From the IMG/VR virus record IMGVR_UViG_3300047311_000323, positions 64,001-128,000 of that record: a DNA stretch of 64,000 bases; one strand, given 5' to 3'. The position numbers were made by a program, and so were the translations under genes. Shown here one piece after another: positions 8,431 to 26,323 of this stretch. Numbering within the stretch: the stretch's first letter is position 1; each line of letters begins with the position of its first letter. Below the pieces are notes generated by a model. The model was not told where the DNA came from. It searched no databases and saw only the letters and a program-made list of their open reading frames with translations. The DNA is from a virus.

Positions 8431-9144
8431 TTACTTAGAAGATTTGGATGACTTCTTGTCGTCCTTCTTGTCAGACTTCTTTGGATCGCTCTTCTTATCC
8501 TTTGCAGAATGAGAATCGCTCTTCTTGGAATCTTTCTTGTCGTCCTTCTTCTTAGCGAATGGATTAGACTTCTTGTCCTTAGCAGACTGAGAGTCACTCT
8601 TCTTTTTCTTGTCAGACTTCTTGGTATCCTTTTCCTTCTTCTTGGCTTCAACAGTCAAGGAAGCAATCTTTAGGACAAGGGCAGATCCACGACCGAGGCC
8701 AACGGAGTCTAGAGCGGCAGATGCAGTTAGCAAGCTGTCGATAGCTACGTCGAATGCAGCAGAAGCTTCTAGATCATCGTCAGCAGAGCTGTCGTCAGAA
8801 TCAGAGTCCTTCTTTGCCTTACGAGCATCGTTGTCATCATCGTCATCAGCATCGCTAGAATCAGAATCGGAATCCTTCTTTTTGCGTGCATCGTTGTCAT
8901 CCCAGGCGCTGGAGGAATCTGAATCAGAATCCTTCTTTGCCTTACGGGCGTCATTGTCATCATCGTCGGCCATGCAGCTATCTTTATCTGCGTGACTGGA
9001 ACCGCACTTGGAACAGGAATGCTTTGCATCATTCATGTCTTGTGCATACTTGTATTGAACATCGAACAACGACTTGTGTTCTTTGCTGTTTAGAACCGCA
9101 TTCATAGTTGCGGCTACAAAATCTGATACGCTCTGGTTTTTCAT
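8431..9144 (-). CDS. Low-complexity acidic/basic internal head protein (possible DNA-condensing protein)
   Basis: Three DDNDARK(A)KKDSDSD repeats, then a Lys-rich C-terminus with two SDSxSAKDKKSxP units and NPFAKK. GAGGA SD. Confidence 0.75.
   Translation of the reverse strand: MKNQSVSDFVAATMNAVLNSKEHKSLFDVQYKYAQDMNDAKHSCSKCGSSHADKDSCMADDDDNDARKAKKDSDSDSSSAWDDNDARKKKDSDSDSSDADDDDDNDARKAKKDSDSDDSSADDDLEASAAFDVAIDSLLTASAALDSVGLGRGSALVLKIASLTVEAKKKEKDTKKSDKKKKSDSQSAKDKKSNPFAKKKDDKKDSKKSDSHSAKDKKSDPKKSDKKDDKKSSKSSK
8790..8970. repeat. Three imperfect coding tandem repeats of about 60-66 bp
   Basis: The units encode DDNDARK(A/K)KKDSDSD(S/D)SxA. They are in frame, with no unique spacers. Confidence 0.85.
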
Positions 9145-9172: not shown

Positions 9173-11719
9173 TTAGAACACACCCTTTTTATTACCAAAG
9201 AGGTTTGACAACTGGGTATAAGAGTCATCCTCGACTGCTTGAGCTGGAGAGAATTCTCCATCAACTCTGAGACCAACTTGTGGCATGCTTCCTGCAGACT
9301 TACGCAGCATACCTGGTTCATGACGGGCAACGACCTTCTTGAGGGATTCGAATGCGTCATCATTAAACTTCATAATCTGATCAACTTGATCTGAGATGGT
9401 TACTCTGTCATGCTTGCACAGACCACGGTCAACCATGTCATAGGTTAGTTCATAGGCACGAGCTAGCTTAATTCTGAAGGTGTTTAACTCTTCTTCCATA
9501 GCTGACTTGACATGTTCCTTCACCATTTCACTGGCAAATTCACTTCCGCCATCAACTTCACCGAAGTACTTCTTCCAGTAAGCAACAGCTTCCTTGTCCA
9601 ATCCGTAAGATGCTAGAGCATCAACGTCATTTGGATCAAGCTTGCCCTCAGAGACGAGTCTCTGAATGACTTCTGCTTCTTTGCGAACCTTTGGTGGTGC
9701 CTTAGCAACCTCCAACATTCTCTTGTTTACTTCTGGGAGGGTCTCAACCAATCCGAGGCTGTCGGATGGCTTTACTTCCAATTCAGTTTGTCCATCGGCT
9801 AGTCTGTCGGCCTGGTCTAGCATATCACTAAACTTTTGCTTGGACATGTCTTGGATTTCTCCGTCTTCTTCTTTACCGAGAGCGTCAGCAGCCAACTTGG
9901 CCCTGAGAGCTGCACGGCCTGCTCTATCATCAAATGATGCCATAGTTAACTTCTTTCCGGCCAACTCTGGTGGTACTTTCTCACCTTGTTCAAAAGTGAG
10001 ATCGTTGTCGTCAGCCAAACCTTCTAGTAGTGGTTCTGCATGTGGCTCTTCGTGTTCGTGTTCTTCACCGCCCACATCTCCATCTAGAAGACCTTCGAGT
10101 CCATCCAAACCACCCAAACCTTCGCCACCCAAATCGCTGTGGTCTTGGTCATCGCCCATCATTTCTTGGACGGCATCCAAATCTGCGTTGGTGTCGTTGA
10201 TTAAGCCCATTAAGTCGCCGCCATCTGCGGAGTGGTTATCCTTCATGCTCATAGCGTCTCCTTCGTCTGAGGCAAGTGATTCGAGTTCTGACTCAATCTC
10301 TGCACGCTTGACAATGGCTTTAGTACCACGAGCATACTTGACGAATGCGGTCATTAGCTTAAAGCCGTCTGCTACAGCAGTCTTGGCTTCGTTTAATGCA
10401 TCGTCTACAATATTGCCTACAAAATCTTGGTTAGAATCAGTTACAGCGCCCTTGTCGTACATTCCAACAATCATATCTAGTTCTTGCTGGTGTTCAGTTA
10501 GTTCTGCAATAGCTTCTTTCATTGCATGAGTTAGTGCGCCATTCAATTCTCTTCTTAGAGTATTGAGGGTTGCTGTGCTGAAGTTATCAGAAGCAGAGGA
10601 CTCCATGGAGTCTTTCTTCTTCTTTGCATCTTGGTCGTCAGCAGCCATTGGGCCACCGGCTGGACCGCCTACGCCACCTGCTGGAGGAGCGCTACCTGCT
10701 TCTGGACCGCCCATTTCAGCTTGTTCACCAGTTAAGGCACGAACAGCTTCTACTAGGTCAGAGCTTAGGTCTCTTACCTTTTCGGCAAGTTCAACTGCAC
10801 TCTGCTTTGGGTCACCAGACTTGCCTGCGTCTTCTGCTGGAGGACCAGCATCTGGACCGGCATCACCACCTGGAGGTGGGGCACTGGATGGGTCACCGGC
10901 TGGAGGGCCGGCTGGTGGAGCACCACCTGGAGCGCCTTGTGCTTTCTTAATTAGTTTGCTTACCGCATCAGCACCATTAACTTTGACCTTTTCGATCAAC
11001 TTGGCACCGAAGTCCTTGGTAGCAATTGAGTCATATAGAACGTCAGTGTTTCCACCGGATAGTTCTGCAACAGATGCAGTCAACAATAGCTTGTCACCTA
11101 GGAATACTTCCCAAGCGCTTCTGCCCTTGTTCTGGGTGCCGTTGCTGTTGGCAGCCTTGACGAATCTGGCTCTTAGTTGAGCGCGTGCTAGCATCTGCTT
11201 ACGCTTCAATTCATCCTTTGGATCAGCGGAGGATGGAGAAGGGTGCATGCCGTCTACTGGACCAACACCTGGGAATGGTGGTTGACCAACCATGTGCTTG
11301 TCTTCGTATTCACGTAGTTCTTCGTTAAGCTTATCTTTTGGATACTTAACTTTACCTGGGGTTGGCTCGTTTACGCCGCCACCACCTAGGTAATAGGCTT
11401 CTTTGCTTCTCAAAGCGTCTTTTGCCATATTGACAATGGAGTTACGCTTGAGGGTGCGCTCTTCTGCTTCTGCACGAGCGAGCATCTTCTTACGCTCTAA
11501 CTCGCCAGATGGGTCAGCCGAAGCTGGAGAAGGGTGCATACCATCGACTGGACCTACCTCAGGGAAAGGAGGCTGACCCGTCATGTGCTTGTCTTCGTGT
11601 TCACGAAGTTGCTCATTGAGTCCGTCTTTTGGATATTTAACTTGGCCTGGAGTTGGCTCATTAACGCCACCGCCACCCTGGAAATAAGCTTGCTTATTGA
11701 TTTCTTTTGATCCGGACAT
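9173..11719 (-). CDS. Putative nested in-frame scaffold product (848 aa) from internal start Met405
   Basis: AAGAGGAACAC-ATG at 11719 is in frame. The product begins MSGSKEINKQAYFQGGGG, mirroring the start of gene 24490..25563 (MSVNKKGYFQGGGG). Confidence 0.55.
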   Translation of the reverse strand: MSGSKEINKQAYFQGGGGVNEPTPGQVKYPKDGLNEQLREHEDKHMTGQPPFPEVGPVDGMHPSPASADPSGELERKKMLARAEAEERTLKRNSIVNMAKDALRSKEAYYLGGGGVNEPTPGKVKYPKDKLNEELREYEDKHMVGQPPFPGVGPVDGMHPSPSSADPKDELKRKQMLARAQLRARFVKAANSNGTQNKGRSAWEVFLGDKLLLTASVAELSGGNTDVLYDSIATKDFGAKLIEKVKVNGADAVSKLIKKAQGAPGGAPPAGPPAGDPSSAPPPGGDAGPDAGPPAEDAGKSGDPKQSAVELAEKVRDLSSDLVEAVRALTGEQAEMGGPEAGSAPPAGGVGGPAGGPMAADDQDAKKKKDSMESSASDNFSTATLNTLRRELNGALTHAMKEAIAELTEHQQELDMIVGMYDKGAVTDSNQDFVGNIVDDALNEAKTAVADGFKLMTAFVKYARGTKAIVKRAEIESELESLASDEGDAMSMKDNHSADGGDLMGLINDTNADLDAVQEMMGDDQDHSDLGGEGLGGLDGLEGLLDGDVGGEEHEHEEPHAEPLLEGLADDNDLTFEQGEKVPPELAGKKLTMASFDDRAGRAALRAKLAADALGKEEDGEIQDMSKQKFSDMLDQADRLADGQTELEVKPSDSLGLVETLPEVNKRMLEVAKAPPKVRKEAEVIQRLVSEGKLDPNDVDALASYGLDKEAVAYWKKYFGEVDGGSEFASEMVKEHVKSAMEEELNTFRIKLARAYELTYDMVDRGLCKHDRVTISDQVDQIMKFNDDAFESLKKVVARHEPGMLRKSAGSMPQVGLRVDGEFSPAQAVEDDSYTQLSNLFGNKKGVF

Positions 11720-12931
11720 GTGTTCCTCTTGTATTTTGGTAGTAGAAGTTTTTGCTAACTTATCCAAGCTCTTCTTCATTTGACTTAACGTAGCTTCAAT
11801 TGATGCAGTAACTTGCTGAAGCTCAGCCAATGATTCCGCCTCTACATCTGCGGATGCAAGCCTAATGGCTTGCGGAGTTTGGAGAGCCAATCCAGAATCC
11901 GGGGTTGTGCCAGTATCCATGGCTTGCGAACCCGACGATTGATTATATGTTGAAGAATTAGTATCTTTTCCAGAATTTTTTACGTTCTTGAATTCTTGCA
12001 CCTTACGAAAGGCTTCATCTAATTCTGTCTTGAAACTATCAATGTCACTTGCTTCGACGTTGAATTGAGCGCTTCCGCCGCCTTCTTCGCCATTTGGATC
12101 TGACACGTTTACATTAGCACTAAACTTGAGATCGGCCATTTTTTCTAGTTCTTTGGCACGATTCTCTAGATAAGTATTCATTGTATTTGCTGCAGCAATG
12201 ATGTGTTTGATGTTGGCTCTAGGATCCGCACCATTTACAACGATAGATAGCTCAATTGGATTGAGGTCTACGTTGATTTCACCGTAGCAAGTCTTGTTCT
12301 TCATATGACTGCAGAAGTCAGCTTCAGCGCGAGCGACTCGACCGCAATCATAACAGATGGCTCTTCCAACAGCAGTGCCCATAGATACGCAGTTAGAAAC
12401 GCCGGTTGAAATTTGTCTAGCTAATTGAGGGAATCCAGCCTTATCTAAGGCGCACAACGCAATCACTCTCTTGAGGCTGCGATCGTAATAGGTATCAACG
12501 ATAAAACCTCTAACATGGTCAACCGAACTCGATTTATGATCCACGCATAGAGGCTTGTGTTTCCACTTCTTGTAAGCTTTGGTTAATTCTGCTTCTGGAA
12601 AAATATCTCCATTGGAATTCTTATATGGCTTAATGTTAGGGTCATTTGATGCCCATTTCCATGTACCACCACTAGTATCCCAGCCTACTTCGACTGGTTC
12701 GCCCTTGAGCGTTAGCTTTGGTGTGCCATCTTCGTTAAGCGCTGCGGCCTCGGCGGCATGCATCATAACGGCAGAGAAATATAGGAAGTCTTCAGCTTTA
12801 GGTGCAATCTTCTTTAGGTTAGTTGCGAACTTCCTAAAGTTCTCCAATACCTCAGCACTCACCTCAGGAAGACATGATTCCATGTTCTCTAGTTTAATTT
12901 CGTGGGCTTCGCCTAATTTAATAATGGGCAT
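9173..12931 (-). CDS. Prohead maturation protease fused to a long scaffold region (1252 aa)
   Basis: N-terminal NGDIF...LCVDH...VSMG...CYDCG...FCSH...IELSIV..GADP pattern (His/Ser protease with Cys cluster). The remainder is acidic, coiled and Pro/Gly-rich, ending in a short amphipathic helix (YTQLSNLF). Confidence 0.85.
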   Translation of the reverse strand: MPIIKLGEAHEIKLENMESCLPEVSAEVLENFRKFATNLKKIAPKAEDFLYFSAVMMHAAEAAALNEDGTPKLTLKGEPVEVGWDTSGGTWKWASNDPNIKPYKNSNGDIFPEAELTKAYKKWKHKPLCVDHKSSSVDHVRGFIVDTYYDRSLKRVIALCALDKAGFPQLARQISTGVSNCVSMGTAVGRAICYDCGRVARAEADFCSHMKNKTCYGEINVDLNPIELSIVVNGADPRANIKHIIAAANTMNTYLENRAKELEKMADLKFSANVNVSDPNGEEGGGSAQFNVEASDIDSFKTELDEAFRKVQEFKNVKNSGKDTNSSTYNQSSGSQAMDTGTTPDSGLALQTPQAIRLASADVEAESLAELQQVTASIEATLSQMKKSLDKLAKTSTTKIQEEHMSGSKEINKQAYFQGGGGVNEPTPGQVKYPKDGLNEQLREHEDKHMTGQPPFPEVGPVDGMHPSPASADPSGELERKKMLARAEAEERTLKRNSIVNMAKDALRSKEAYYLGGGGVNEPTPGKVKYPKDKLNEELREYEDKHMVGQPPFPGVGPVDGMHPSPSSADPKDELKRKQMLARAQLRARFVKAANSNGTQNKGRSAWEVFLGDKLLLTASVAELSGGNTDVLYDSIATKDFGAKLIEKVKVNGADAVSKLIKKAQGAPGGAPPAGPPAGDPSSAPPPGGDAGPDAGPPAEDAGKSGDPKQSAVELAEKVRDLSSDLVEAVRALTGEQAEMGGPEAGSAPPAGGVGGPAGGPMAADDQDAKKKKDSMESSASDNFSTATLNTLRRELNGALTHAMKEAIAELTEHQQELDMIVGMYDKGAVTDSNQDFVGNIVDDALNEAKTAVADGFKLMTAFVKYARGTKAIVKRAEIESELESLASDEGDAMSMKDNHSADGGDLMGLINDTNADLDAVQEMMGDDQDHSDLGGEGLGGLDGLEGLLDGDVGGEEHEHEEPHAEPLLEGLADDNDLTFEQGEKVPPELAGKKLTMASFDDRAGRAALRAKLAADALGKEEDGEIQDMSKQKFSDMLDQADRLADGQTELEVKPSDSLGLVETLPEVNKRMLEVAKAPPKVRKEAEVIQRLVSEGKLDPNDVDALASYGLDKEAVAYWKKYFGEVDGGSEFASEMVKEHVKSAMEEELNTFRIKLARAYELTYDMVDRGLCKHDRVTISDQVDQIMKFNDDAFESLKKVVARHEPGMLRKSAGSMPQVGLRVDGEFSPAQAVEDDSYTQLSNLFGNKKGVF
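11183..11690. repeat. Two 72-codon direct repeats in the protease-scaffold gene
   Basis: The two Y(F/Y)xGGGGVNEPTPG...MLARA units have 59/72 identical residues and are separated by 25 aa. Confidence 0.95.
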
Positions 12932-18259: not shown

Positions 18260-20143
18260 TCACGCTGGTGGTGGTGGACCTGGTGGAGCGCCGCCTCCTG
18301 GTGGCATTAATCCGGCTGAAGCTCCACTTGGTGGAGGTGGAGGAGGACCGCCTGGGCCACCGCCTGGAGGAGGTGGTGGTGGACCACCTGGTAGACCCAA
18401 ATCTGGCATTCCGCCGCCTGGTGGTGCTCCGCCTGGAGTCTCTCCTGGTAGTGGGGCTTCTTGACCAGCTCCCTGTTGTTTTGGCTCTGGAATTTCATCC
18501 TCGTCATCCAATGCACGGAGAGAGTTGAGGTCCATAGCTTCAAGGGCGGCCGTTTCCTTCTTGGCAATTGCGTTCTGAACATTTTCTTTACGCATCTTGC
18601 GTACTTCGTCTTCATACTCAAGACCCAAAGAACGGTATAGGGTGTGAATAGAGACTCTCTTCTGGTCGGCTTGACCCTGAGATAGAGTAACTAAGCTGTT
18701 GATGTAGTCACCTGCATCAAACAAGCTCATGTGGTTCCAATCAATTTCAGGAACGATAAGTTGTTTCTCACCACCAGAGTAGTCATAGAAGCCCTGGATC
18801 TTGGAGATTGGAGCAAAAATCTTAGTCTTGAGCCACTGAGACATCATATTACGGAACTGCATGTATCTCTGACGTAGAACGTCCAAAGCTACACCGCCGT
18901 TAGCGTAAGTGGTATCAGAACCACCGTCCATCATAACTGGTGGAACGAACAAACCAACATAGATTTCCTTCATGAGCTGAGTAATATCGCCGGAGATATC
19001 GTAGATACCTTGTCCCCAACCGACTCTCTCAACAGCAACGCCTTCATGGGTGAAGATTTTGAAGTCTTTGTCGTATTGCGCTTCTTCGAAGACGCCTCTC
19101 CATGCTTCAAGGTCAGCAAAGGTTGGCTTGTAGTCAGCCGAACCAATCTTAACCAAAGTCAATGGGTTGATCATGTTATCAGACTGGGCGTACTTAGATT
19201 CACGTAGCTTATCAAAGAGCATCAACTGACGGAAAATACAGACTGGAAGGCCAGTGCCTCTAATTTCGTAAGGGCTGATACGACGAGCTAAGTGTGATAC
19301 ATGGAAGTTGTCTAGTGGAATGTTTTCTCCACGTCTTACAGAGTCGATAATGTGCTGGTTAAGCTGCTTACGCTGTTCAATATCGGTTGGACGGTTTGAG
19401 AAAATGATTTTCTTGAGGTTCTCATCAGGACGAAGCATGATGATTGGTTCGCTGGCTACGACCGTACGTTTGACAATCATGAAATCTGGGTTTTGAATGT
19501 GTAGGCGACTCCACTTGCCCTTACCTTCATCCAGTTCTGCATAAACAAACGCTTCTCCTAAGAGCCAATACTCTTGGGCAATCTGTACACAGATGTTCAT
19601 TAGGTCAATCTCTTCGATCATGTCATCGAAGAACTTTTCAATATCCTTATTAGGACACTTGATAGATAGTTTGCTGATTGGGTATGTGCTATGCAAACTG
19701 ACAGCATTATGCACGAATGGGTTCAATGCAAAGAAGCTTCGGCACCATGCATTAATAGTTGCACGGTCACGCGGTAGGTTCAAGTTGCTGTTGAGCCAAA
19801 GTGGGGAATAAACTTCAGGAGTCTGCTTGACGGTGTCGCCATGGATACCACGGAACATACCACCAGAGCTAGACACTACCTGTGAATTTTTCTTGAAGCC
19901 TACGGAGGAGACAACGTTAGAAGCCGTAGTAGGCGCGTTGGCCAATGAAAGTTTGTTATAACTTGGGCCAGAGCCATCCCTGAAGTATCCCTGTTCGACC
20001 TCGTCAGAAAGAATAACTCTTCTTTCTCCGGAGACGCCACTTGCCATAATAGCACTTACTTGTGGGGTAGTGGATCTACCTGATAAGAATCTTGCTGAAA
20101 AGGATGGGGCTTCCCCTAATCCCGATTTTTTAATACCAGCCAT
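18260..20143 (-). CDS. Portal protein
   Basis: 627 aa adjacent to the terminase. Core FFALNPFVHNAV...HLARRISPYEIRGTG...LVKIG...GIYDI pattern. Gly/Pro C-terminal tail. Confidence 0.8.
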   Translation of the reverse strand: MAGIKKSGLGEAPSFSARFLSGRSTTPQVSAIMASGVSGERRVILSDEVEQGYFRDGSGPSYNKLSLANAPTTASNVVSSVGFKKNSQVVSSSGGMFRGIHGDTVKQTPEVYSPLWLNSNLNLPRDRATINAWCRSFFALNPFVHNAVSLHSTYPISKLSIKCPNKDIEKFFDDMIEEIDLMNICVQIAQEYWLLGEAFVYAELDEGKGKWSRLHIQNPDFMIVKRTVVASEPIIMLRPDENLKKIIFSNRPTDIEQRKQLNQHIIDSVRRGENIPLDNFHVSHLARRISPYEIRGTGLPVCIFRQLMLFDKLRESKYAQSDNMINPLTLVKIGSADYKPTFADLEAWRGVFEEAQYDKDFKIFTHEGVAVERVGWGQGIYDISGDITQLMKEIYVGLFVPPVMMDGGSDTTYANGGVALDVLRQRYMQFRNMMSQWLKTKIFAPISKIQGFYDYSGGEKQLIVPEIDWNHMSLFDAGDYINSLVTLSQGQADQKRVSIHTLYRSLGLEYEDEVRKMRKENVQNAIAKKETAALEAMDLNSLRALDDEDEIPEPKQQGAGQEAPLPGETPGGAPPGGGMPDLGLPGGPPPPPPGGGPGGPPPPPPSGASAGLMPPGGGAPPGPPPPA

Positions 20144-20224: not shown

Positions 20225-22108
20225 TTAGAACCTTCTCGGTACATAACCGCTCATTACCATGGGTTTATTCAGGTTTTTAGGGGTATGAAGCATTGGATTG
20301 TTATTTGTGAAGCCTCGACTAACTAAGAATTTAAAAGCCAAATAAGCGTTCAGCAGTGCCATAAATCCGTCGTTTGGTGTTCCGCCCTTGACATAATGGA
20401 CTGTGTGGTCACCATATTTAGAAATAGATGGCTTGAGTTCCATACTACAACAATGGTCAATTAACCATGCAACCTTCTCATAATCTCCATATGGGAATCT
20501 AATCAGACCTTTCTTCATTTGGTCATAAAGCTCACTAATATAGAAGTCTCTCTCGAAGATAATTTCTTTTGGAAAAGCCTCATGATTAAACTTAACATGA
20601 TCATTAACTCTGTTATGAGCACGAGAGACTAGATATCTATCTCCATAAGTGTTATGTAGTGTAGAAGAAAAGTCATTAGAGTAACCAATGTCTCCAATGG
20701 TTAGCTGCACACTATACTGTCTCATCAATTGATCAATGAGCCCCTTTTTGCTTTCCGGATCATTTCGTTTAAACTTAGTAGCAAATTCAATTGACAGTAA
20801 GTTAGATCCTTTGGTTTGCAAAATAACAGCGGTACTATAAGATTGGCCAGCAGGTTTTACTCTTTCTGGGTCAGCTAATTGTTCTAGGTCAGAACGGGCA
20901 CCATAATCGATTCCCATTACCGTCAACTGCTGCATTGGTCCTTTGGTTGGAAGAATACGTGGGCTATATTTTCTTTCGAAGTCAGCACATAGAGTACGTA
21001 CCTCGTCTGGAGACATCGGACTTGCATCTCCCTGATAGAACTCTCCAAGAACTTCGTTTTGGAAAACACGCTCAGTATTGATTGGATGACGGCCCGGCTT
21101 TTCCTTATCGATATCTTCTCTAGTGAATTTGGGCATGTAAAGCTGATTGATATGGAAACCAATCATATCACAGTCTGGATCGTTTGGATTCTTCAGAGCA
21201 ACCCACTTGCCACGTTCTTGTGCTTGTAGTTTATCTTGTTCATGGCCGCATTTTGAACACTTAACTACTTTACCATGAATCCAAACTTTCTCCCAATCAT
21301 CAGAACCTGGCGTGTAAAGTGGGAAATGCTCTTCACATTTCTCACAGCCTAAGTAGTAATATTGCTGAGAAGAAGACTGCCACATCTTGTGGTAGTCAGA
21401 TCCTTTACGACGGGGCGTTCCAAAGAAAACTTGTACTCCCTGTGTAGGTCTGCCATATTTGGCGTTGGTTAGAATTTTAAGAGCGTTTCCAATAGCCTGA
21501 GTCGTTGTCTTCTGAACTTCGTCAAAGAATAGAATATCAGCGGTACGACCCATGATTCTGTCGGCGTCTACGCCAGTCGACTCTACCCACAAGTGGTTTC
21601 CGCCAATGAACTGTTTAAAATGCAAAGAATCGTTGGTAGGAGAAGACTGGTCTAGTAATTGCTGCATGAAAGACTTTGGACGAGAGCCCTTGTTTTCGGG
21701 AGTTCCTTCAGGGACCTTAGCCATATTGATCATTTGGTTTAGCTTGGTCTTAGAATAGGCCGCAGCTAACTCCAATTGAGGGAAAGCGTGGATGATACGG
21801 ATTGGTGGACGGAACCCGTCTCCGAACAAACCAGAGCCCATGAAATACATTTCCAAAGCACTAGCCATGGTAGTAGCTCCTACCTGACGGCCTTTGACTA
21901 AGATAACTGGCTTAGCATCTGGCTCTAATGCTTTAATACCAATGTATCTGTAAATATCTGAGAAGGGCTTATATCCATTACCACTCAATCTGAATGGTTC
22001 ACCTTCTAATGTTAAATTCTCTTGACAAAATGTTACGGGGTCAATCATTGAGAGTTGTCTTTTCATCTTCTCAAAGATTTCCTTATTTTCAATATTTATA
22101 CTGGGCAT
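20225..22108 (-). CDS. terL: Terminase large subunit (lambda gpA-like family)
   Basis: Walker A region VKGRQVGATT, Walker B LFFDEVQ, GTP coupling motif, CEKC/CSKC zinc motif, FQNEVLGE, and RNase H-like MGIDYG nuclease motif. Confidence 0.92.
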   Translation of the reverse strand: MPSINIENKEIFEKMKRQLSMIDPVTFCQENLTLEGEPFRLSGNGYKPFSDIYRYIGIKALEPDAKPVILVKGRQVGATTMASALEMYFMGSGLFGDGFRPPIRIIHAFPQLELAAAYSKTKLNQMINMAKVPEGTPENKGSRPKSFMQQLLDQSSPTNDSLHFKQFIGGNHLWVESTGVDADRIMGRTADILFFDEVQKTTTQAIGNALKILTNAKYGRPTQGVQVFFGTPRRKGSDYHKMWQSSSQQYYYLGCEKCEEHFPLYTPGSDDWEKVWIHGKVVKCSKCGHEQDKLQAQERGKWVALKNPNDPDCDMIGFHINQLYMPKFTREDIDKEKPGRHPINTERVFQNEVLGEFYQGDASPMSPDEVRTLCADFERKYSPRILPTKGPMQQLTVMGIDYGARSDLEQLADPERVKPAGQSYSTAVILQTKGSNLLSIEFATKFKRNDPESKKGLIDQLMRQYSVQLTIGDIGYSNDFSSTLHNTYGDRYLVSRAHNRVNDHVKFNHEAFPKEIIFERDFYISELYDQMKKGLIRFPYGDYEKVAWLIDHCCSMELKPSISKYGDHTVHYVKGGTPNDGFMALLNAYLAFKFLVSRGFTNNNPMLHTPKNLNKPMVMSGYVPRRF

Positions 22109-24489: not shown

Positions 24490-25563
24490 TTAGATATTCC
24501 ACTTATCCTCATAGATATCGGTACCAATATCAGAAGTTCCAGTAAATGGCTCTTCTACTTGCTCGGTTTGGTCAGCATCGTGACCTTCTGGATCTACGCC
24601 ATCTGGCAAGCCAAATAAACCGTCTTCAGATGGGGTTAGGTACTTATTAAAAAGTTTTTGCAGGATATCCTCGTGAAGACCTCTAGCTGGCTTTGTCTCT
24701 TCGTCATAATCTCTACCGAAATTAAGGGCATCAGCCGAACGACCATCAAAATCGTTTTCTGGTAAATAAGAGTGCTCACCAGCAATCTGTCCAGATTGGA
24801 ATGAACTCTGGAAAAGCTCAGGTCCTATATCTCCTGGGAAAAGAGAATAGTCATCATTGCCTGCAGGACCTAACGGACCCACTAGTCTTGGCTTATGATA
24901 CTGCTCTTCACCAGGATAAATCATTTGGTTATAGTGGTTTACCTGTTCATCAATCGGGAAGTCAATATGATTGACATCCTTTTTCTTCTTCTTTTTTGGA
25001 CCAGGGGTGCCTTGATATGGACTGTTTTTCCAATCATAGATACTGGTGCCATGCTCTTTAGGCGGAAGCATATGATCGGCATTGTCATCGGCAAAGAAAG
25101 CGCCTGGACCGTGATCTTCCTCTTCCCTGAACTCTTCAACACTGTCAACTTTGCCATCGCTCATTTCTTGATAGAGACCTTTTCCTAAATCATAATTAGG
25201 GCCTGCGGTCTTGATTATTCTTTCAAAAATAGCTGCACGGGCTTTAATGCCAGGATTTTCTTTAGTACGTTTGCCAGAATCCAATTGCCAAGAATCGTCG
25301 GCTTCATAGCGACCCTTCATCCTACTACGCCTTGCTTCTAGAAATTCCTGGACGCTATCGTAATTTTGTAGACCGTGGTATCCCGTGCCGGGGCCGATGT
25401 CCTCCATGCCGGGAATTGTATACAAATCGTAGTTGTAATAAAATGGTTCTTCAAAACGTGGCTGAACAACCAAGGCCGGATCGGACTTGTATTTCTTTTC
25501 ACCAGGCGTTGGTTCGTTGACCCCGCCTCCACCTTGGAAATAACCTTTCTTATTGACTGACAT
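24490..25563 (-). CDS. Head protein carrying a third YFQGGGGVNEPTPG module
   Basis: Start refined to MSVNKKGYFQ (ATG 25563, AAGGA SD). 17/21 identity to protease repeat 1 over the module. Confidence 0.8.
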   Translation of the reverse strand: MSVNKKGYFQGGGGVNEPTPGEKKYKSDPALVVQPRFEEPFYYNYDLYTIPGMEDIGPGTGYHGLQNYDSVQEFLEARRSRMKGRYEADDSWQLDSGKRTKENPGIKARAAIFERIIKTAGPNYDLGKGLYQEMSDGKVDSVEEFREEEDHGPGAFFADDNADHMLPPKEHGTSIYDWKNSPYQGTPGPKKKKKKDVNHIDFPIDEQVNHYNQMIYPGEEQYHKPRLVGPLGPAGNDDYSLFPGDIGPELFQSSFQSGQIAGEHSYLPENDFDGRSADALNFGRDYDEETKPARGLHEDILQKLFNKYLTPSEDGLFGLPDGVDPEGHDADQTEQVEEPFTGTSDIGTDIYEDKWNI

Positions 25564-26323
25564 TGGATTTTCCTTTAACATGCTTCATGTAGTATGGATA
25601 TACCTTTTCTGTAATTGGTATCTGAGTCCATAGATTCATCTGAGTAATTAGTTGAGCTGCCTTCTCTGGATTCCTAGTGAAAGCTTCATTTAGCTTATCG
25701 TTCATTGATTTCTCAGTTGAAATCTTAACAGTTTCAGGATACTTTCTTACATACTCAATAATTGAATCATCCAAGTCAAAATCCAATTTACAAGCAAGAT
25801 AAATTGCCCTTACAACTCTATTCCTATTAGAAGTGAGAGTTACCTCAGGCGCTAAACAAGTTCTAATCTTCTTCTCTTTGATATCTTTGAATCCTCGTTT
25901 AGTTGGATCCAAAGTTTGCTTTAGGTCTAACGTCAGCAACAAAGAGTTACAGGTAAAATCACGACTGAACATTTCGCGCTGCATGTTGGTAGGATTTCTG
26001 ATTCCTAACTTCGCTAGCTCTTGGTCAATGTTTTCGACCATAAAATTAGAAGAGAAGTCTACCTTCAAAGTACCTACGAAGATAGAGCTGTGTCCATCTT
26101 CCATAGTTTTTCTGGTGACGTTATACTTCTTACGAAACTCAATGAAAAACTCTTGAGACAAATAGTCAACGGTCTTATCACCAGTAGTAACATCTATGTC
26201 GGCGATGTTTTCTAGTTTACCCATGTACTTATCTCTAGGCGTACCTCCGCAGATATAGGGCGGAGATGCGCCTATCTGTTCTTGCACTCTCTTCATTTCT
26301 GAAAGCAGTTCGCGGAGTTTCAT
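25550..26323 (-). CDS. Minimal class II tRNA nucleotidyltransferase / poly(A) polymerase-family enzyme
   Basis: Motif A CGGTPRD...DIDVTT and SRDFTCNS, then DPT..G..DI..KKIR. Motif D reads SNRNR instead of EDxxR. 257 aa, no HD domain. Confidence 0.88.
   Translation of the reverse strand: MKLRELLSEMKRVQEQIGASPPYICGGTPRDKYMGKLENIADIDVTTGDKTVDYLSQEFFIEFRKKYNVTRKTMEDGHSSIFVGTLKVDFSSNFMVENIDQELAKLGIRNPTNMQREMFSRDFTCNSLLLTLDLKQTLDPTKRGFKDIKEKKIRTCLAPEVTLTSNRNRVVRAIYLACKLDFDLDDSIIEYVRKYPETVKISTEKSMNDKLNEAFTRNPEKAAQLITQMNLWTQIPITEKVYPYYMKHVKGKSNVSQ

What the first reader, a model, noticed from the sequence alone, without database searches (positions are those of the whole stretch)
11183..11690. Twin 72-aa cassettes in the scaffold, with a third copy of the motif starting another gene 14 kb away
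Seen: two units with 59/72 identity, each opened by K-x-A (KQA-YFQ, KEA-YYL) and closed by MLARA. Gene 24490..25563 begins KKG-YFQGGGGVNEPTPGEKKYKSD (17/21 identity). Inference: the protease excises two near-identical Pro/Gly-rich peptides from a polyprotein. The YFQGGGGVNEPTPG segment would be a docking motif for a repeated site on the inner capsid, and the 24490 protein would use the same address. I know of no named family for this module.
Basis: partly seen in the sequence, partly recalled or inferred. Interest (0 to 1): 0.78.

Follow-up and report, generated by a model that had tools for sequence, protein, structure and literature searches.

The report
Shared head-protein tag in giant phages
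A giant uncultured phage carries the same floppy ~75-residue module twice at the start of its capsid scaffold and once at the start of another head-region protein; it is most likely a cut-here-and-dock tag for building and loading the capsid, a kind of tag not yet described for this phage group and not tested experimentally.

Summary
ORF 9173-12931 (-) encodes a 1252-aa prohead protease-scaffold fusion. It holds two 75-aa units (aa 413-487 and 510-584; 61/75 identical). The protein of gene 24490-25563 (-) opens with a third, diverged copy.

The twin layout is ancient and near-universal. A profile of the first block finds 158 protein clusters (50% identity level) in 1.84 billion, all listed long ones with two copies. 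No Pfam, NCBIfam or PHROG family covers the module.

New here:
- A conserved Shine-Dalgarno site plus ATG (Met405) lies just upstream of unit 1 in all 27 homologous loci read at DNA level. This suggests a nested scaffold that begins with the module.
- K-x-A is the most over-represented conserved tripeptide pattern in the scaffold part (0 of 20,000 shuffles reach it), so it is a plausible protease site.
- In about half of relatives, the third-copy protein carries a CCA-like nucleotidyltransferase upstream of its K-x-A site.
- The first 40 aa of the two units evolve in concert within genomes; the rest does not.
- AlphaFold predicts the motif to be disordered.

Best reading (about 50%): a protease site followed by a docking peptide. 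Docking, its partner and cleavage are all untested. First readers of this scan noted the same module in other genomes.

The parts
9173..12931 (-). 1252-aa prohead protease-scaffold ORF
   Evidence: ORF. The fused ORF is conserved at 1121-1582 aa in 16 aligned relatives and at 1135-1344 aa in eight more distant ones.
12182..12832 (-). Prohead maturation protease domain (aa ~34-250), with a Cys-rich insert after the V-S-M-G-T serine motif
   Evidence: phrog_18299 at E 2.5e-12; phage G gp19 at 34% identity. H132, S183, C193, C196 and C207 are invariant in 17 sequences and C215 is nearly invariant.
11723..11730 (-). Internal Shine-Dalgarno site AAGAGGAA, 3 nt before the Met405 ATG
   Evidence: A purine-rich SD is kept in all 27 homologous loci read at DNA level, even where the encoded residues change. 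Only 7 of 984 internal in-frame ATGs in this genome have a strong SD.
11717..11719 (-). ATG of Met405, the putative start of a nested 848-aa scaffold
   Evidence: Met405 is invariant in 17/17 sequences and at least 90% conserved in 41 cluster representatives. A Met lies 4-6 residues before the motif in most long proteins.
11471..11695 (-). Unit 1 (aa 413-487); core K-x-A-Y-F-Q-G-G-G-G-V-N-E-P at 11654-11695
   Evidence: pLDDT is below 50 at the core.
11405..11470 (-). Linker between the units (aa 488-509), part of a predicted helix spanning aa 474-508
   Evidence: AlphaFold helix at model residues 70-104, pLDDT 75-88.
11180..11404 (-). Unit 2 (aa 510-584); core at 11363-11404
10934..11179 (-). 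Folded beta/alpha domain right after unit 2 (aa 585-666), ending at the conserved K-K-A site (10940-10948)
   Evidence: pLDDT 94-98. No PDB chain reaches Z 5.
9461..10339 (-). Span holding five further conserved K-x-A sites: aa 865 (10331-10339), 875 (10301-10309), 1012 (9890-9898), 1084 (9674-9682), 1155 (9461-9469)
   Evidence: There are seven sites at 85% conservation or more (aa 510, 662 and these five); 0 of 20,000 label shuffles reach this count.
24490..25563 (-). Gene of the 357-aa, mostly disordered-looking 'floppy' protein that opens with the third copy. The module is at about 25294-25563 and its core at 25510-25551.
   Evidence: The 27-member family alignment shows the N-terminal ~95 aa as the most conserved part.
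25550..26323 (-). CCA-like nucleotidyltransferase gene that overlaps the start of the floppy gene. It is fused in frame to the floppy gene in 13 of 30 distinct relatives.
   Evidence: ORF. Fusions. PF01743 on fusion protein P0130.

Best explanation
What it is. The twin cassettes are two copies of an old, intrinsically disordered ~75-residue module. They sit at the N-terminal end of the scaffold part of a protease-scaffold gene in a ~0.3-0.5-Mb uncultured phage.

Nested scaffold. The scaffold is probably also translated alone from a conserved internal start (Met405). This would match lambda C/Nu3, herpesvirus UL26/UL26.5 and HFTV1 gp17/17.5. The free scaffold would then begin with the module.

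Anatomy of a module:
- a probable maturation-protease site, K-x-(A/G) followed by Tyr;
- a nearly invariant short linear motif, Y-(F/Y/W)-(Q/L)-G-G-G-G-x-N-E-P;
- a short helix;
- a Pro/Gly block, G-P-x-D-G-(M/L)-H-P;
- a basic helix ending in L-x-R-A.

The second carrier. The same module heads a second protein encoded in the head-gene block. In about half of relatives that protein carries an enzyme domain on the N-terminal side of the K-x-A site. Usually this is a CCA-like nucleotidyltransferase.

Proposed mechanism (inferred). The motif is a docking peptide. It ties its carrier to a highly conserved prohead component, either the inner face of the capsid protein or the protease. The scaffold carries two copies, so it would bind bivalently. 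Cleavage at K-x-A during maturation would then free whatever lies upstream, namely the protease domain or the nucleotidyltransferase, inside the head. The other K-x-A sites would dismantle the scaffold.

Shown versus inferred. Shown: the anatomy, the conservation, the internal SD plus ATG, the K-x-A enrichment, the predicted disorder, the fusions and the concerted evolution. Inferred: translation from Met405, cleavage at K-x-A, docking, and the identity of the partner.
For: Conservation:
- The twin units are present in all 17 aligned homologues, down to about 50% identity over the first 660 residues.
- All long proteins among the 158 clusters found in 1.84 billion representatives have two motif stretches.
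- The core is invariant or nearly so in a regex-free alignment of 31 copies.
- Synonymous codons differ between the copies.

Nested start:
- Met405 is invariant, and an SD is kept in all 27 loci read at DNA level despite amino-acid changes at the SD codons.
- The background rate of strong-SD internal ATGs in this genome is 0.7%.
- Nesting is documented for lambda, HSV-1 and HFTV1 (bioRxiv 10.64898/2026.09.13.751334).

Cleavage site:
- K-x-A occurs at 7 conserved places in the scaffold part, and 0 of 20,000 shuffles reach this for any residue pair.
- V-K-Y-A-(A/S) sits in the ~45-residue N-terminal extension of the capsid protein. That extension is the protein's most variable part, and phage G's capsid protein lacks it.
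- A second conserved K-x-A lies in the floppy family.

Something beyond cleavage:
- Fourteen or more residues after the site are invariant.
- The first 40 residues of the two units stay alike within a genome. The nearest relative is the own paralogue in 13 of 22 cases. The remainder of each unit follows orthology in 21 of 22 cases and never groups with its paralogue.

Portability:
- The module follows PolyA_pol-head, DnaJ, DUF7919 or unknown domains, nearly always with K-x-A at the junction.

Disorder:
- pLDDT is below 50 at both cores in two AlphaFold runs.

Precedent:
- T4 capsid targeting sequences load internal proteins and foreign cargo, and they are processed by the head protease (PMC9026906).
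Against: - No virion, prohead or expression data exist for this uncultured clade. Translation from Met405, any cleavage and any binding are all unobserved.
- The residue after the eight K-x-A sites varies (Y, Q, R, E, A, G), so the site definition is loose.
- L-x-R-A is also recurrent and may be the true site, or a second one.
- Only two head-associated families carry the module in IMG/VR loci, plus one small metagenomic family of unknown context. It is therefore not a general tag for many cargo proteins as in T4.
- A 96%-complete relative (G002) and a 71%-complete one (G004) have only the two scaffold copies.
- Concerted evolution could come from gene conversion between adjacent repeats without any shared partner; one lineage (L028) shows 93% nt identity between its units.
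Confidence: 0.5

Rival explanations
1. The motif is only a high-efficiency 'release' cleavage site, like the herpesvirus R site. The conserved residues after K-x-A would be extended recognition on the primed side plus a flexible Gly run for access. There would be no docking function.
For: - K-x-A is enriched.
- The motif sits exactly at the border between a catalytic passenger (protease or nucleotidyltransferase) and a tail.
- The motif is predicted to be disordered.
Against: - The six other conserved K-x-A sites have no such downstream motif.
- Conservation runs for 14-21 residues, and the lineage-specific co-variation of the two units runs for 40 residues. That is more than known head proteases read: SPN3US gp245 and T4 gp21 use motifs of roughly 3-5 positions (PMC10052503; PMC9026906).
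- Unit 2 has no passenger to release.
Confidence: 0.25
2. The motif is a portal-recruitment or nucleation peptide of the scaffold. This would be analogous to the short Tyr/Pro-containing scaffold segment that herpes simplex virus needs for portal incorporation (from my own knowledge, not checked here). The floppy protein would be a portal-proximal or ejection protein.
For: - The motif lies at the N-terminal, not the C-terminal, end of the scaffold. Shell-binding regions of well-studied scaffolds are usually C-terminal (own knowledge).
- The floppy gene lies three genes upstream of terminase and portal.
Against: - Two copies in every scaffold molecule is a lot for a 12-subunit target.
- There is no direct evidence, and portal co-variation was not examined.
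Confidence: 0.1
3. The motif is a T4-style removable targeting propeptide. Cleavage would fall after V-N-E (hydrophobic-x-Glu, as for T4 gp21). That would strip the first ~20-26 residues from the nested scaffold and from the floppy protein.
For: - N-E-P is invariant.
- The motif is N-terminal in the nested scaffold and in half of the floppy family.
- The T4 capsid targeting sequence is a precedent.
Against: - Pro would follow the scissile bond, which is rare for serine proteases (own knowledge).
- No conserved hydrophobic-x-Glu pair is enriched in the scaffold.
- In fusions the motif is internal.
Confidence: 0.07
4. The units are excised as free peptides, or the newly exposed Tyr N-terminus acts after ejection into the host. 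Examples would be a ClpS-type N-degron or a host-binding peptide.
For: - Tyr is invariant right after the putative site, and an aromatic residue plus a flexible Gly run follow it.
- The units are flanked by conserved basic-Ala sites.
Against: - This is purely speculative and does not explain the invariant N-E-P or the Pro/Gly block.
- Scaffold fragments normally leave or are degraded before DNA packaging (general knowledge; PMC10052503).
Confidence: 0.05

Closest known systems
Nested protease/scaffold genes: lambda C/Nu3, HSV-1 UL26/UL26.5, archaeal virus HFTV1 gp17/gp17.5
   Same: - The prohead protease domain is fused in frame to a long scaffold.
- A conserved in-frame internal SD plus ATG would give a co-terminal, protease-free scaffold (paper).
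- An Ala sits before the proposed scissile bond, as at herpesvirus assemblin sites (own knowledge).
   Different: - There is no detectable sequence relation in the scaffold part.
- The nested product would start with a duplicated, conserved disordered module that is also found on another protein.
- The residue after the site is Tyr, not Ser.
- The internal product has not been observed.
Phage T4 capsid targeting sequence (CTS) of internal proteins IPI-III
   Same: A short peptide is shared by otherwise unrelated head-internal proteins. It is linked to a head-protease site, and natural variation in the attached cargo suggests a loading device (PMC9026906).
   Different: - The T4 CTS is ~10 residues, lies N-terminal of the cargo, ends in (L/I)-x-E and is removed.
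- Here the putative site precedes the motif, cargo domains lie upstream of it, the scaffold itself carries two copies, and only 2-3 families use it.
- There is no sequence similarity.
Propeptides of phiKZ-like giant phages (SPN3US gp245 substrates)
   Same: In a large phage head, many proteins are trimmed by a T4-like or HK97-like prohead protease at a short motif repeated within propeptides (PMC10052503).
   Different: - The gp245 motif ends in Glu. Here the enriched pattern is K-x-A.
- SPN3US propeptides do not share a common conserved docking-like peptide.
Bacillus phage G head module (gp14 portal ... gp19 protease, gp21, gp26 decoration, gp27 capsid)
   Same: - This is the closest cultivated relative.
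- The protease is 34% identical.
- The capsid protein is clearly homologous, and the gene order is the same.
- The gp21 C-terminal stretch matches scaffold aa 1147-1202 (hhalign 72%, E 3e-5).
   Different: - In phage G the protease and the putative scaffold are separate genes.
- No copy of the motif is found in gp19-gp27.
- The phage G capsid protein lacks the ~45-residue N-terminal extension.
Encapsulin cargo-loading peptides
   Same: Short, disordered, conserved peptides tether cargo enzymes to the inside of an HK97-fold shell (own knowledge).
   Different: - The sequence motifs are different and sit at cargo termini.
- Encapsulins use no protease and no scaffold.
- This is an analogy only.

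Membership tests
Nested protease-scaffold genes (lambda C/Nu3 type) | N-terminal prohead maturation protease domain | tested here: met
   phrog_18299 at E 2.5e-12; tblastn to phage G gp19 and to annotated prohead proteases; invariant His132 and Ser183. No Pfam protease family reached E 0.1.
Nested protease-scaffold genes (lambda C/Nu3 type) | In-frame internal start with its own ribosome-binding site, giving a co-terminal scaffold | tested here: met
   Met at sequence level only. SD plus ATG is conserved in all 27 loci read at DNA level, Met405 is invariant, and the background rate is 0.7%.
Nested protease-scaffold genes (lambda C/Nu3 type) | The shorter product is actually made, in excess over the full-length protein | not testable with these tools
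   Needs ribosome profiling or proteomics. The clade is uncultured.
T4-type capsid targeting sequence | N-terminal propeptide ending in the protease site and removed on maturation | tested here: inconclusive
   The motif is N-terminal in 14 of 30 floppy-family loci and in the putative nested scaffold, but internal in 14 of 30 fusions and in unit 2. The enriched site (K-x-A) precedes the motif rather than ending it.
T4-type capsid targeting sequence | Sufficient to carry a protein into the prohead | not testable with these tools
   Requires a packaging assay.
Herpesvirus assemblin-type cleavage sites ((V/L/I)-x-A then Ser) | Ala before and Ser after the scissile bond | tested here: not met
   Ala (or Gly) before the bond fits. 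The residue after it is an invariant Tyr at the three module sites, and Q, R, E or A elsewhere. Cleavage itself was not observed.
Any named protein family for the module (Pfam, NCBIfam, PHROGs, ESM Atlas clusters, PDB) | Significant profile match over aa 405-600 or over the floppy protein | tested here: not met
   There are no hits on this region. PHROG and NCBIfam hits cover the protease domain only.

The most novel reading that the evidence does not exclude
Megaphages of this clade have a portable, protease-cleavable address module that binds a co-evolving receptor inside the prohead. The scaffold uses two copies for bivalent attachment. The same module loads enzymes such as a CCA-like nucleotidyltransferase into the capsid and releases them there for delivery into the host. 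This would be a natural cargo-loading system for very large HK97-fold capsids, distinct from the T4 CTS and from encapsulin loading peptides.
Probability: 0.35. Interest if true: 0.8.

Novelty: new variant of a known kind. Interest (0 to 1): 0.62.

Why it matters
How very large capsids (hundreds of kb of DNA, thousands of shell subunits) are scaffolded and filled with proteins is known only for T4 and phiKZ-like phages. This module gives a concrete, testable handle for a large, globally distributed and uncultured megaphage clade.

What it would offer if the reading holds:
- A candidate protease site.
- A candidate docking peptide.
- A candidate route by which an RNA-end enzyme becomes a virion passenger.
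- A short natural tag for loading proteins into large phage capsids.
- Better annotation of about a hundred 'hypothetical' 1100-1600-aa proteins as protease-scaffold genes with a nested scaffold.

Tried and rejected
- Named families. Pfam, NCBIfam and PHROGs found no family for the module or the floppy protein. The ESM Atlas gave no usable hit. A PDB sequence profile gave only coiled-coil noise on the linker.
- Structure. AlphaFold of aa 1-660 with 17 sequences was poor (pLDDT 49), and Foldseek on that model found nothing. A second run on aa 405-700 with 41 sequences gave a confident domain at aa 585-666 but left the motif disordered. The wide PDB search found no chain at Z 5 or above.
- A general tag for many proteins. 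Rejected: there are only three copies in the 198-kb record (HMM scan) and in a complete 480-kb relative (protein search). IMG/VR loci show only the scaffold and floppy families.
- Scaffold split from protease in some phages. Proteins P0003, P0021 and P0065 start at the motif, but the P0021 relatives reached through DNA are all still one fused ORF. P0003 gave no locus.
- The small basic family with the motif (P0128, P0131, P0137). Its genomic context could not be found.
- Hydrophobic-x-Glu as the cleavage motif. It is not enriched.
- Tool failure. A 91-sequence alignment failed in the tool.
- Literature. The string YFQGGGG occurs only in TEV-site-plus-linker constructs. The phage G paper that was read gives no cleavage-specificity data for gp19.
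Full report
WHERE THIS IS

The window is bases 64001-128000 of a 198-kb IMG/VR virus record that CheckV rates 45% complete. Relatives carrying the same genes are 300-480 kb, so this is a megaphage.

Reading the minus strand, the window holds a head module. In order it has:
- large terminase (20225-22108) and portal (18260-20143), both with strong PHROG matches;
- several unknown genes;
- the 1252-aa ORF 9173-12931;
- more unknown genes.

Just beyond the window start lie a decoration-type gene and the major capsid gene. I identify the capsid gene by its obvious similarity to phage G gp27, which is annotated 'major capsid'. The gene order matches phage G, the closest cultivated relative.

THE OBSERVATION

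It holds.
- Unit 1 is aa 413-487 and unit 2 is aa 510-584 of the big ORF.
- The protein of gene 24490-25563 begins with the same peptide, 17 of 21 residues identical.
- An HMM of the motif finds only these three copies in the record, each at E around 1e-17 to 1e-19.
- The three invariant cores use different synonymous codons, so selection acts on the peptide.
About 63-88 residues align with unit 1 at 40% identity (E 2e-14), including the Pro/Gly block.

WHAT THE BIG ORF IS

Residues ~34-250 form a prohead maturation protease (phrog_18299 at E 2.5e-12; phage G gp19 at 34% identity; annotated prohead proteases of actinophages). His132 and Ser183 are invariant. The remaining ~1000 residues look like a scaffold. 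They have long helices, Pro-rich and acidic linkers, and a conserved C-terminal helical region. That C-terminal region gives a weak profile match to phage G gp21 (72% probability, E 3e-5). In phage G the protease (gp19, 300 aa) and gp21 are separate genes, and no copy of the motif is present there.

CONSERVATION OF THE MODULE

- Forty IMG/VR loci were found with the twin region.
- In 17 full-length homologues, down to about 50% identity over the first 660 residues, both units are present and colinear.
- Each unit has three blocks. Block A is K-x-(A/G)-Y-(F/Y/W)-(Q/L/H)-G-(G/A)-G-G-x-N-E-P, followed by x-P-G-x-x-K-Y. Block B is D-K-Q-M-x-G-Q ... G-x-V-D-G-(M/L)-H-P. Block C is E-L-x-R-K-x-M-L-x-R-A.
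- A regex-free alignment of 31 copies has Y, three G, N, E, P and a later Y invariant.
- A profile of block A, searched against 1.84 billion cluster representatives, found 158 clusters (102 at E 1e-10 or better).
- About 90 of these are 1000-1665-aa proteins, all listed ones with two stretches.
- About 35 are short proteins with one stretch at residues 1-36.
- No named family covers the module. The literature holds the string only as an engineered TEV-site-plus-linker.

A NESTED SCAFFOLD

Eight to twelve codons before unit 1 there is an invariant Met (Met405), preceded by AAGAGGAA and a 3-nt spacer. All 27 homologous loci I read at DNA level keep a purine-rich SD at the right distance. This holds even where the encoded residues change, for example from Q-E-E to K-E-D, N-E-D, K-K-D or D-G-E. 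In this genome only 7 of 984 internal in-frame ATGs have a strong SD.

This is the lambda C/Nu3 and herpesvirus UL26/UL26.5 design, recently shown by ribosome profiling for an archaeal virus. The nested 848-aa scaffold would begin M-S-G-S-K-E-I-N and then the module. The floppy protein begins M-S-V-N and then the module. Two polypeptides would therefore share the same N-terminal layout. Its second proposed start, Met894, has a strong SD here but lies in a poorly conserved stretch.

A CANDIDATE PROTEASE SITE

I looked at alignment columns conserved at 85% or more in the scaffold part.
- K-x-A is by far the commonest i,i+2 pair, with seven sites (aa 510, 662, 865, 875, 1012, 1084, 1155). Site 413 is an eighth, where Ala alternates with Gly.
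- No residue pair reaches seven in 20,000 shuffles of the conserved labels.
- The protease part shows no such excess.
- Several sites sit at predicted domain borders. For example, K-K-A lies at the end of the confidently folded aa 585-666 domain, just before a Pro-rich linker.
- The capsid protein is 91-100% identical across 80 loci. Its most variable part is a ~45-residue N-terminal extension that phage G's capsid protein lacks. That extension carries a conserved V-K-Y-A-(A/S).
- The same four residues, V-K-Y-A, form one of the best conserved spots of the scaffold (aa 864-867).
- The floppy family has a second conserved K-x-A about 115 residues in.

I infer that K-x-A, cut after Ala, is the protease's site. 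Nothing here observes cleavage. A recurrent L-x-R-A remains an alternative or additional site.

THE SECOND CARRIER

The short proteins are one family.
- They share the module, then Q-P-R-F-x-E-P-F-Y-x-N-Y-D-L-Y and G-P-G-x-G-W.
- They share a K-x-A site, a long variable low-complexity middle and a conserved C-terminal end.

Among 30 distinct IMG/VR loci:
- 14 are separate genes starting 4-7 codons before the motif;
- 14 are in-frame fusions in which the module is internal, 13 of them behind the ~255-aa CCA-like nucleotidyltransferase that is the upstream, overlapping gene in this window.

Other cluster representatives have a DnaJ domain, DUF7919 or an unknown domain in front. The junction nearly always reads (hydrophobic)-K-x-A and then the motif. 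This agrees with an earlier follow-up on the nucleotidyltransferase (e1-5774060). The architecture 'enzyme, K-x-A, motif, tail' therefore occurs twice: protease-scaffold and nucleotidyltransferase-floppy. In both cases an enzyme-free form starts at the motif.

CONCERTED EVOLUTION

I compared both units in eleven diverse genomes.
- The first 40 residues of a unit are nearest to the other unit of the same genome in 13 of 22 cases.
- The remaining ~40 residues are nearest to the same unit of another genome in 21 of 22 cases, and never to their own paralogue.
- Mean identity of the first 40 residues is 76% within a genome. Between genomes it is 49-50% for orthologous units.
- Lineage-specific changes appear in both units at once. 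One example is a four-residue deletion after N-E-P in one clade.
- Third-codon identity is mostly 0.4-0.6, and 0.82 in one lineage.

So the duplication is old, yet the front halves are kept alike. Two causes are possible. Both copies may have to fit the same partner, or there may be repeated gene conversion with a conserved boundary. The third copy shares only the ~16-residue core and does not follow these lineage changes.

STRUCTURE

Two AlphaFold runs put both cores below pLDDT 50. Between the units there is a confident helix (aa 474-508). After unit 2 comes a very confident small beta/alpha domain (aa 585-666) with no PDB match at Z 5 or above. The motif therefore behaves as a short linear motif in a disordered segment. 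Such motifs act in trans, as docking or cleavage sites.

INTERPRETATION

I favour a two-part element, at about 50%: a protease site followed by a docking peptide for a highly conserved prohead component. The scaffold would carry it in two copies, and a second head-associated protein would reuse it, sometimes dragging an enzyme into the head. Cleavage would free the upstream passenger.

The main rival, at about 25%, is that the element is only an unusually well-defined release site. Three points count against that rival:
- the length of the conserved stretch;
- the co-variation over 40 residues;
- the lack of any such sequence after the other K-x-A sites.

Lesser rivals are portal recruitment, a T4-like removable propeptide cut after V-N-E, and a post-ejection role for the exposed Tyr N-terminus.

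LIMITS

- Every functional step is inferred.
- No complex prediction could be run.
- The same module was noted by first readers on several other genomes in this scan (e1-5392237, e1-5401828, e1-5319447, e1-5361663, e1-5736253). Those notes are unchecked and add no independent evidence.

Noticed in passing
window 12287-12355 (aa 193-215 of ORF 9173-12931): A Cys-rich insert, C-x-x-C ... C-x-H ... C, lies directly after the putative catalytic V-S-M-G-T serine of the protease. C193, C196 and C207 are invariant in 17 homologues and C215 is nearly invariant. It looks like a zinc ribbon inside a prohead protease.
   Followed up: no
window 10250-10252 (Met894 of the big ORF): A second in-frame ATG has a strong SD (GAAGGAGA) in this window, but it lies in one of the least conserved stretches of the scaffold. 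A third nested product is therefore doubtful.
   Followed up: partly
window 25550-25581 and loci L037, L159-L164, L166, L174, L181, L183: The CCA-like nucleotidyltransferase gene overlaps the start of the floppy gene here in another frame. In 13 of 30 distinct relatives the two are one in-frame ORF. Some of those fusions also keep an SD plus ATG right before the motif, which suggests the same nested logic as in the scaffold.
   Followed up: partly
G000:C1:61945-62955 (-), just before the window; locus L068: The 337-aa major capsid protein is 91-100% identical across 80 IMG/VR loci, while the scaffold diverges to about 40% (37-38% over the scaffold part in the most distant aligned relatives). 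Its ~45-residue N-terminal extension is absent from phage G gp27, is its most variable part, and holds a conserved V-K-Y-A-(A/S).
   Followed up: partly
window 8431-9144 (-): A 237-aa ORF lies directly after the scaffold gene. It has three acidic repeats (D-D-N-D-A-R-K-x-K-K-D-S-D-S-D) and a Lys/Ser-rich tail. There is no family hit. It may be an internal head or DNA-associated protein.
   Followed up: no
proteins P0121, P0128, P0131, P0137: A third, small (128-179 aa) basic protein family carries the same core motif in mid-protein. The motif follows a coiled-coil-like N-terminus and is followed by P-R-G-D-G-E ... W-K-P-N-x-D-Y ... D-G-R-Y-K-K-K-K. No IMG/VR locus was found for it, so its genomic context is unknown.
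   Followed up: partly
window 10934-11179 (aa 585-666): A small beta/alpha domain after unit 2 is predicted with pLDDT 94-98. The best PDB matches reach only Z 4.6 (an AP2-type DNA-binding domain among them), so it may be a new or much-diverged fold.
   Followed up: partly
locus L231 (phage G) 8303-9763: Phage G gp21 (486 aa, unannotated) matches the C-terminal helical region of this scaffold (aa 1147-1202) at hhalign probability 72%, E 3e-5. This suggests gp21 is phage G's scaffold.
   Followed up: partly
G002:C1:8101-8268: In a 96%-complete 409-kb relative that lacks a third motif copy, an 81-aa open frame matches residues 31-86 of the floppy protein (E 3e-5). It may be a remnant or a short form without the core motif.
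   Followed up: no
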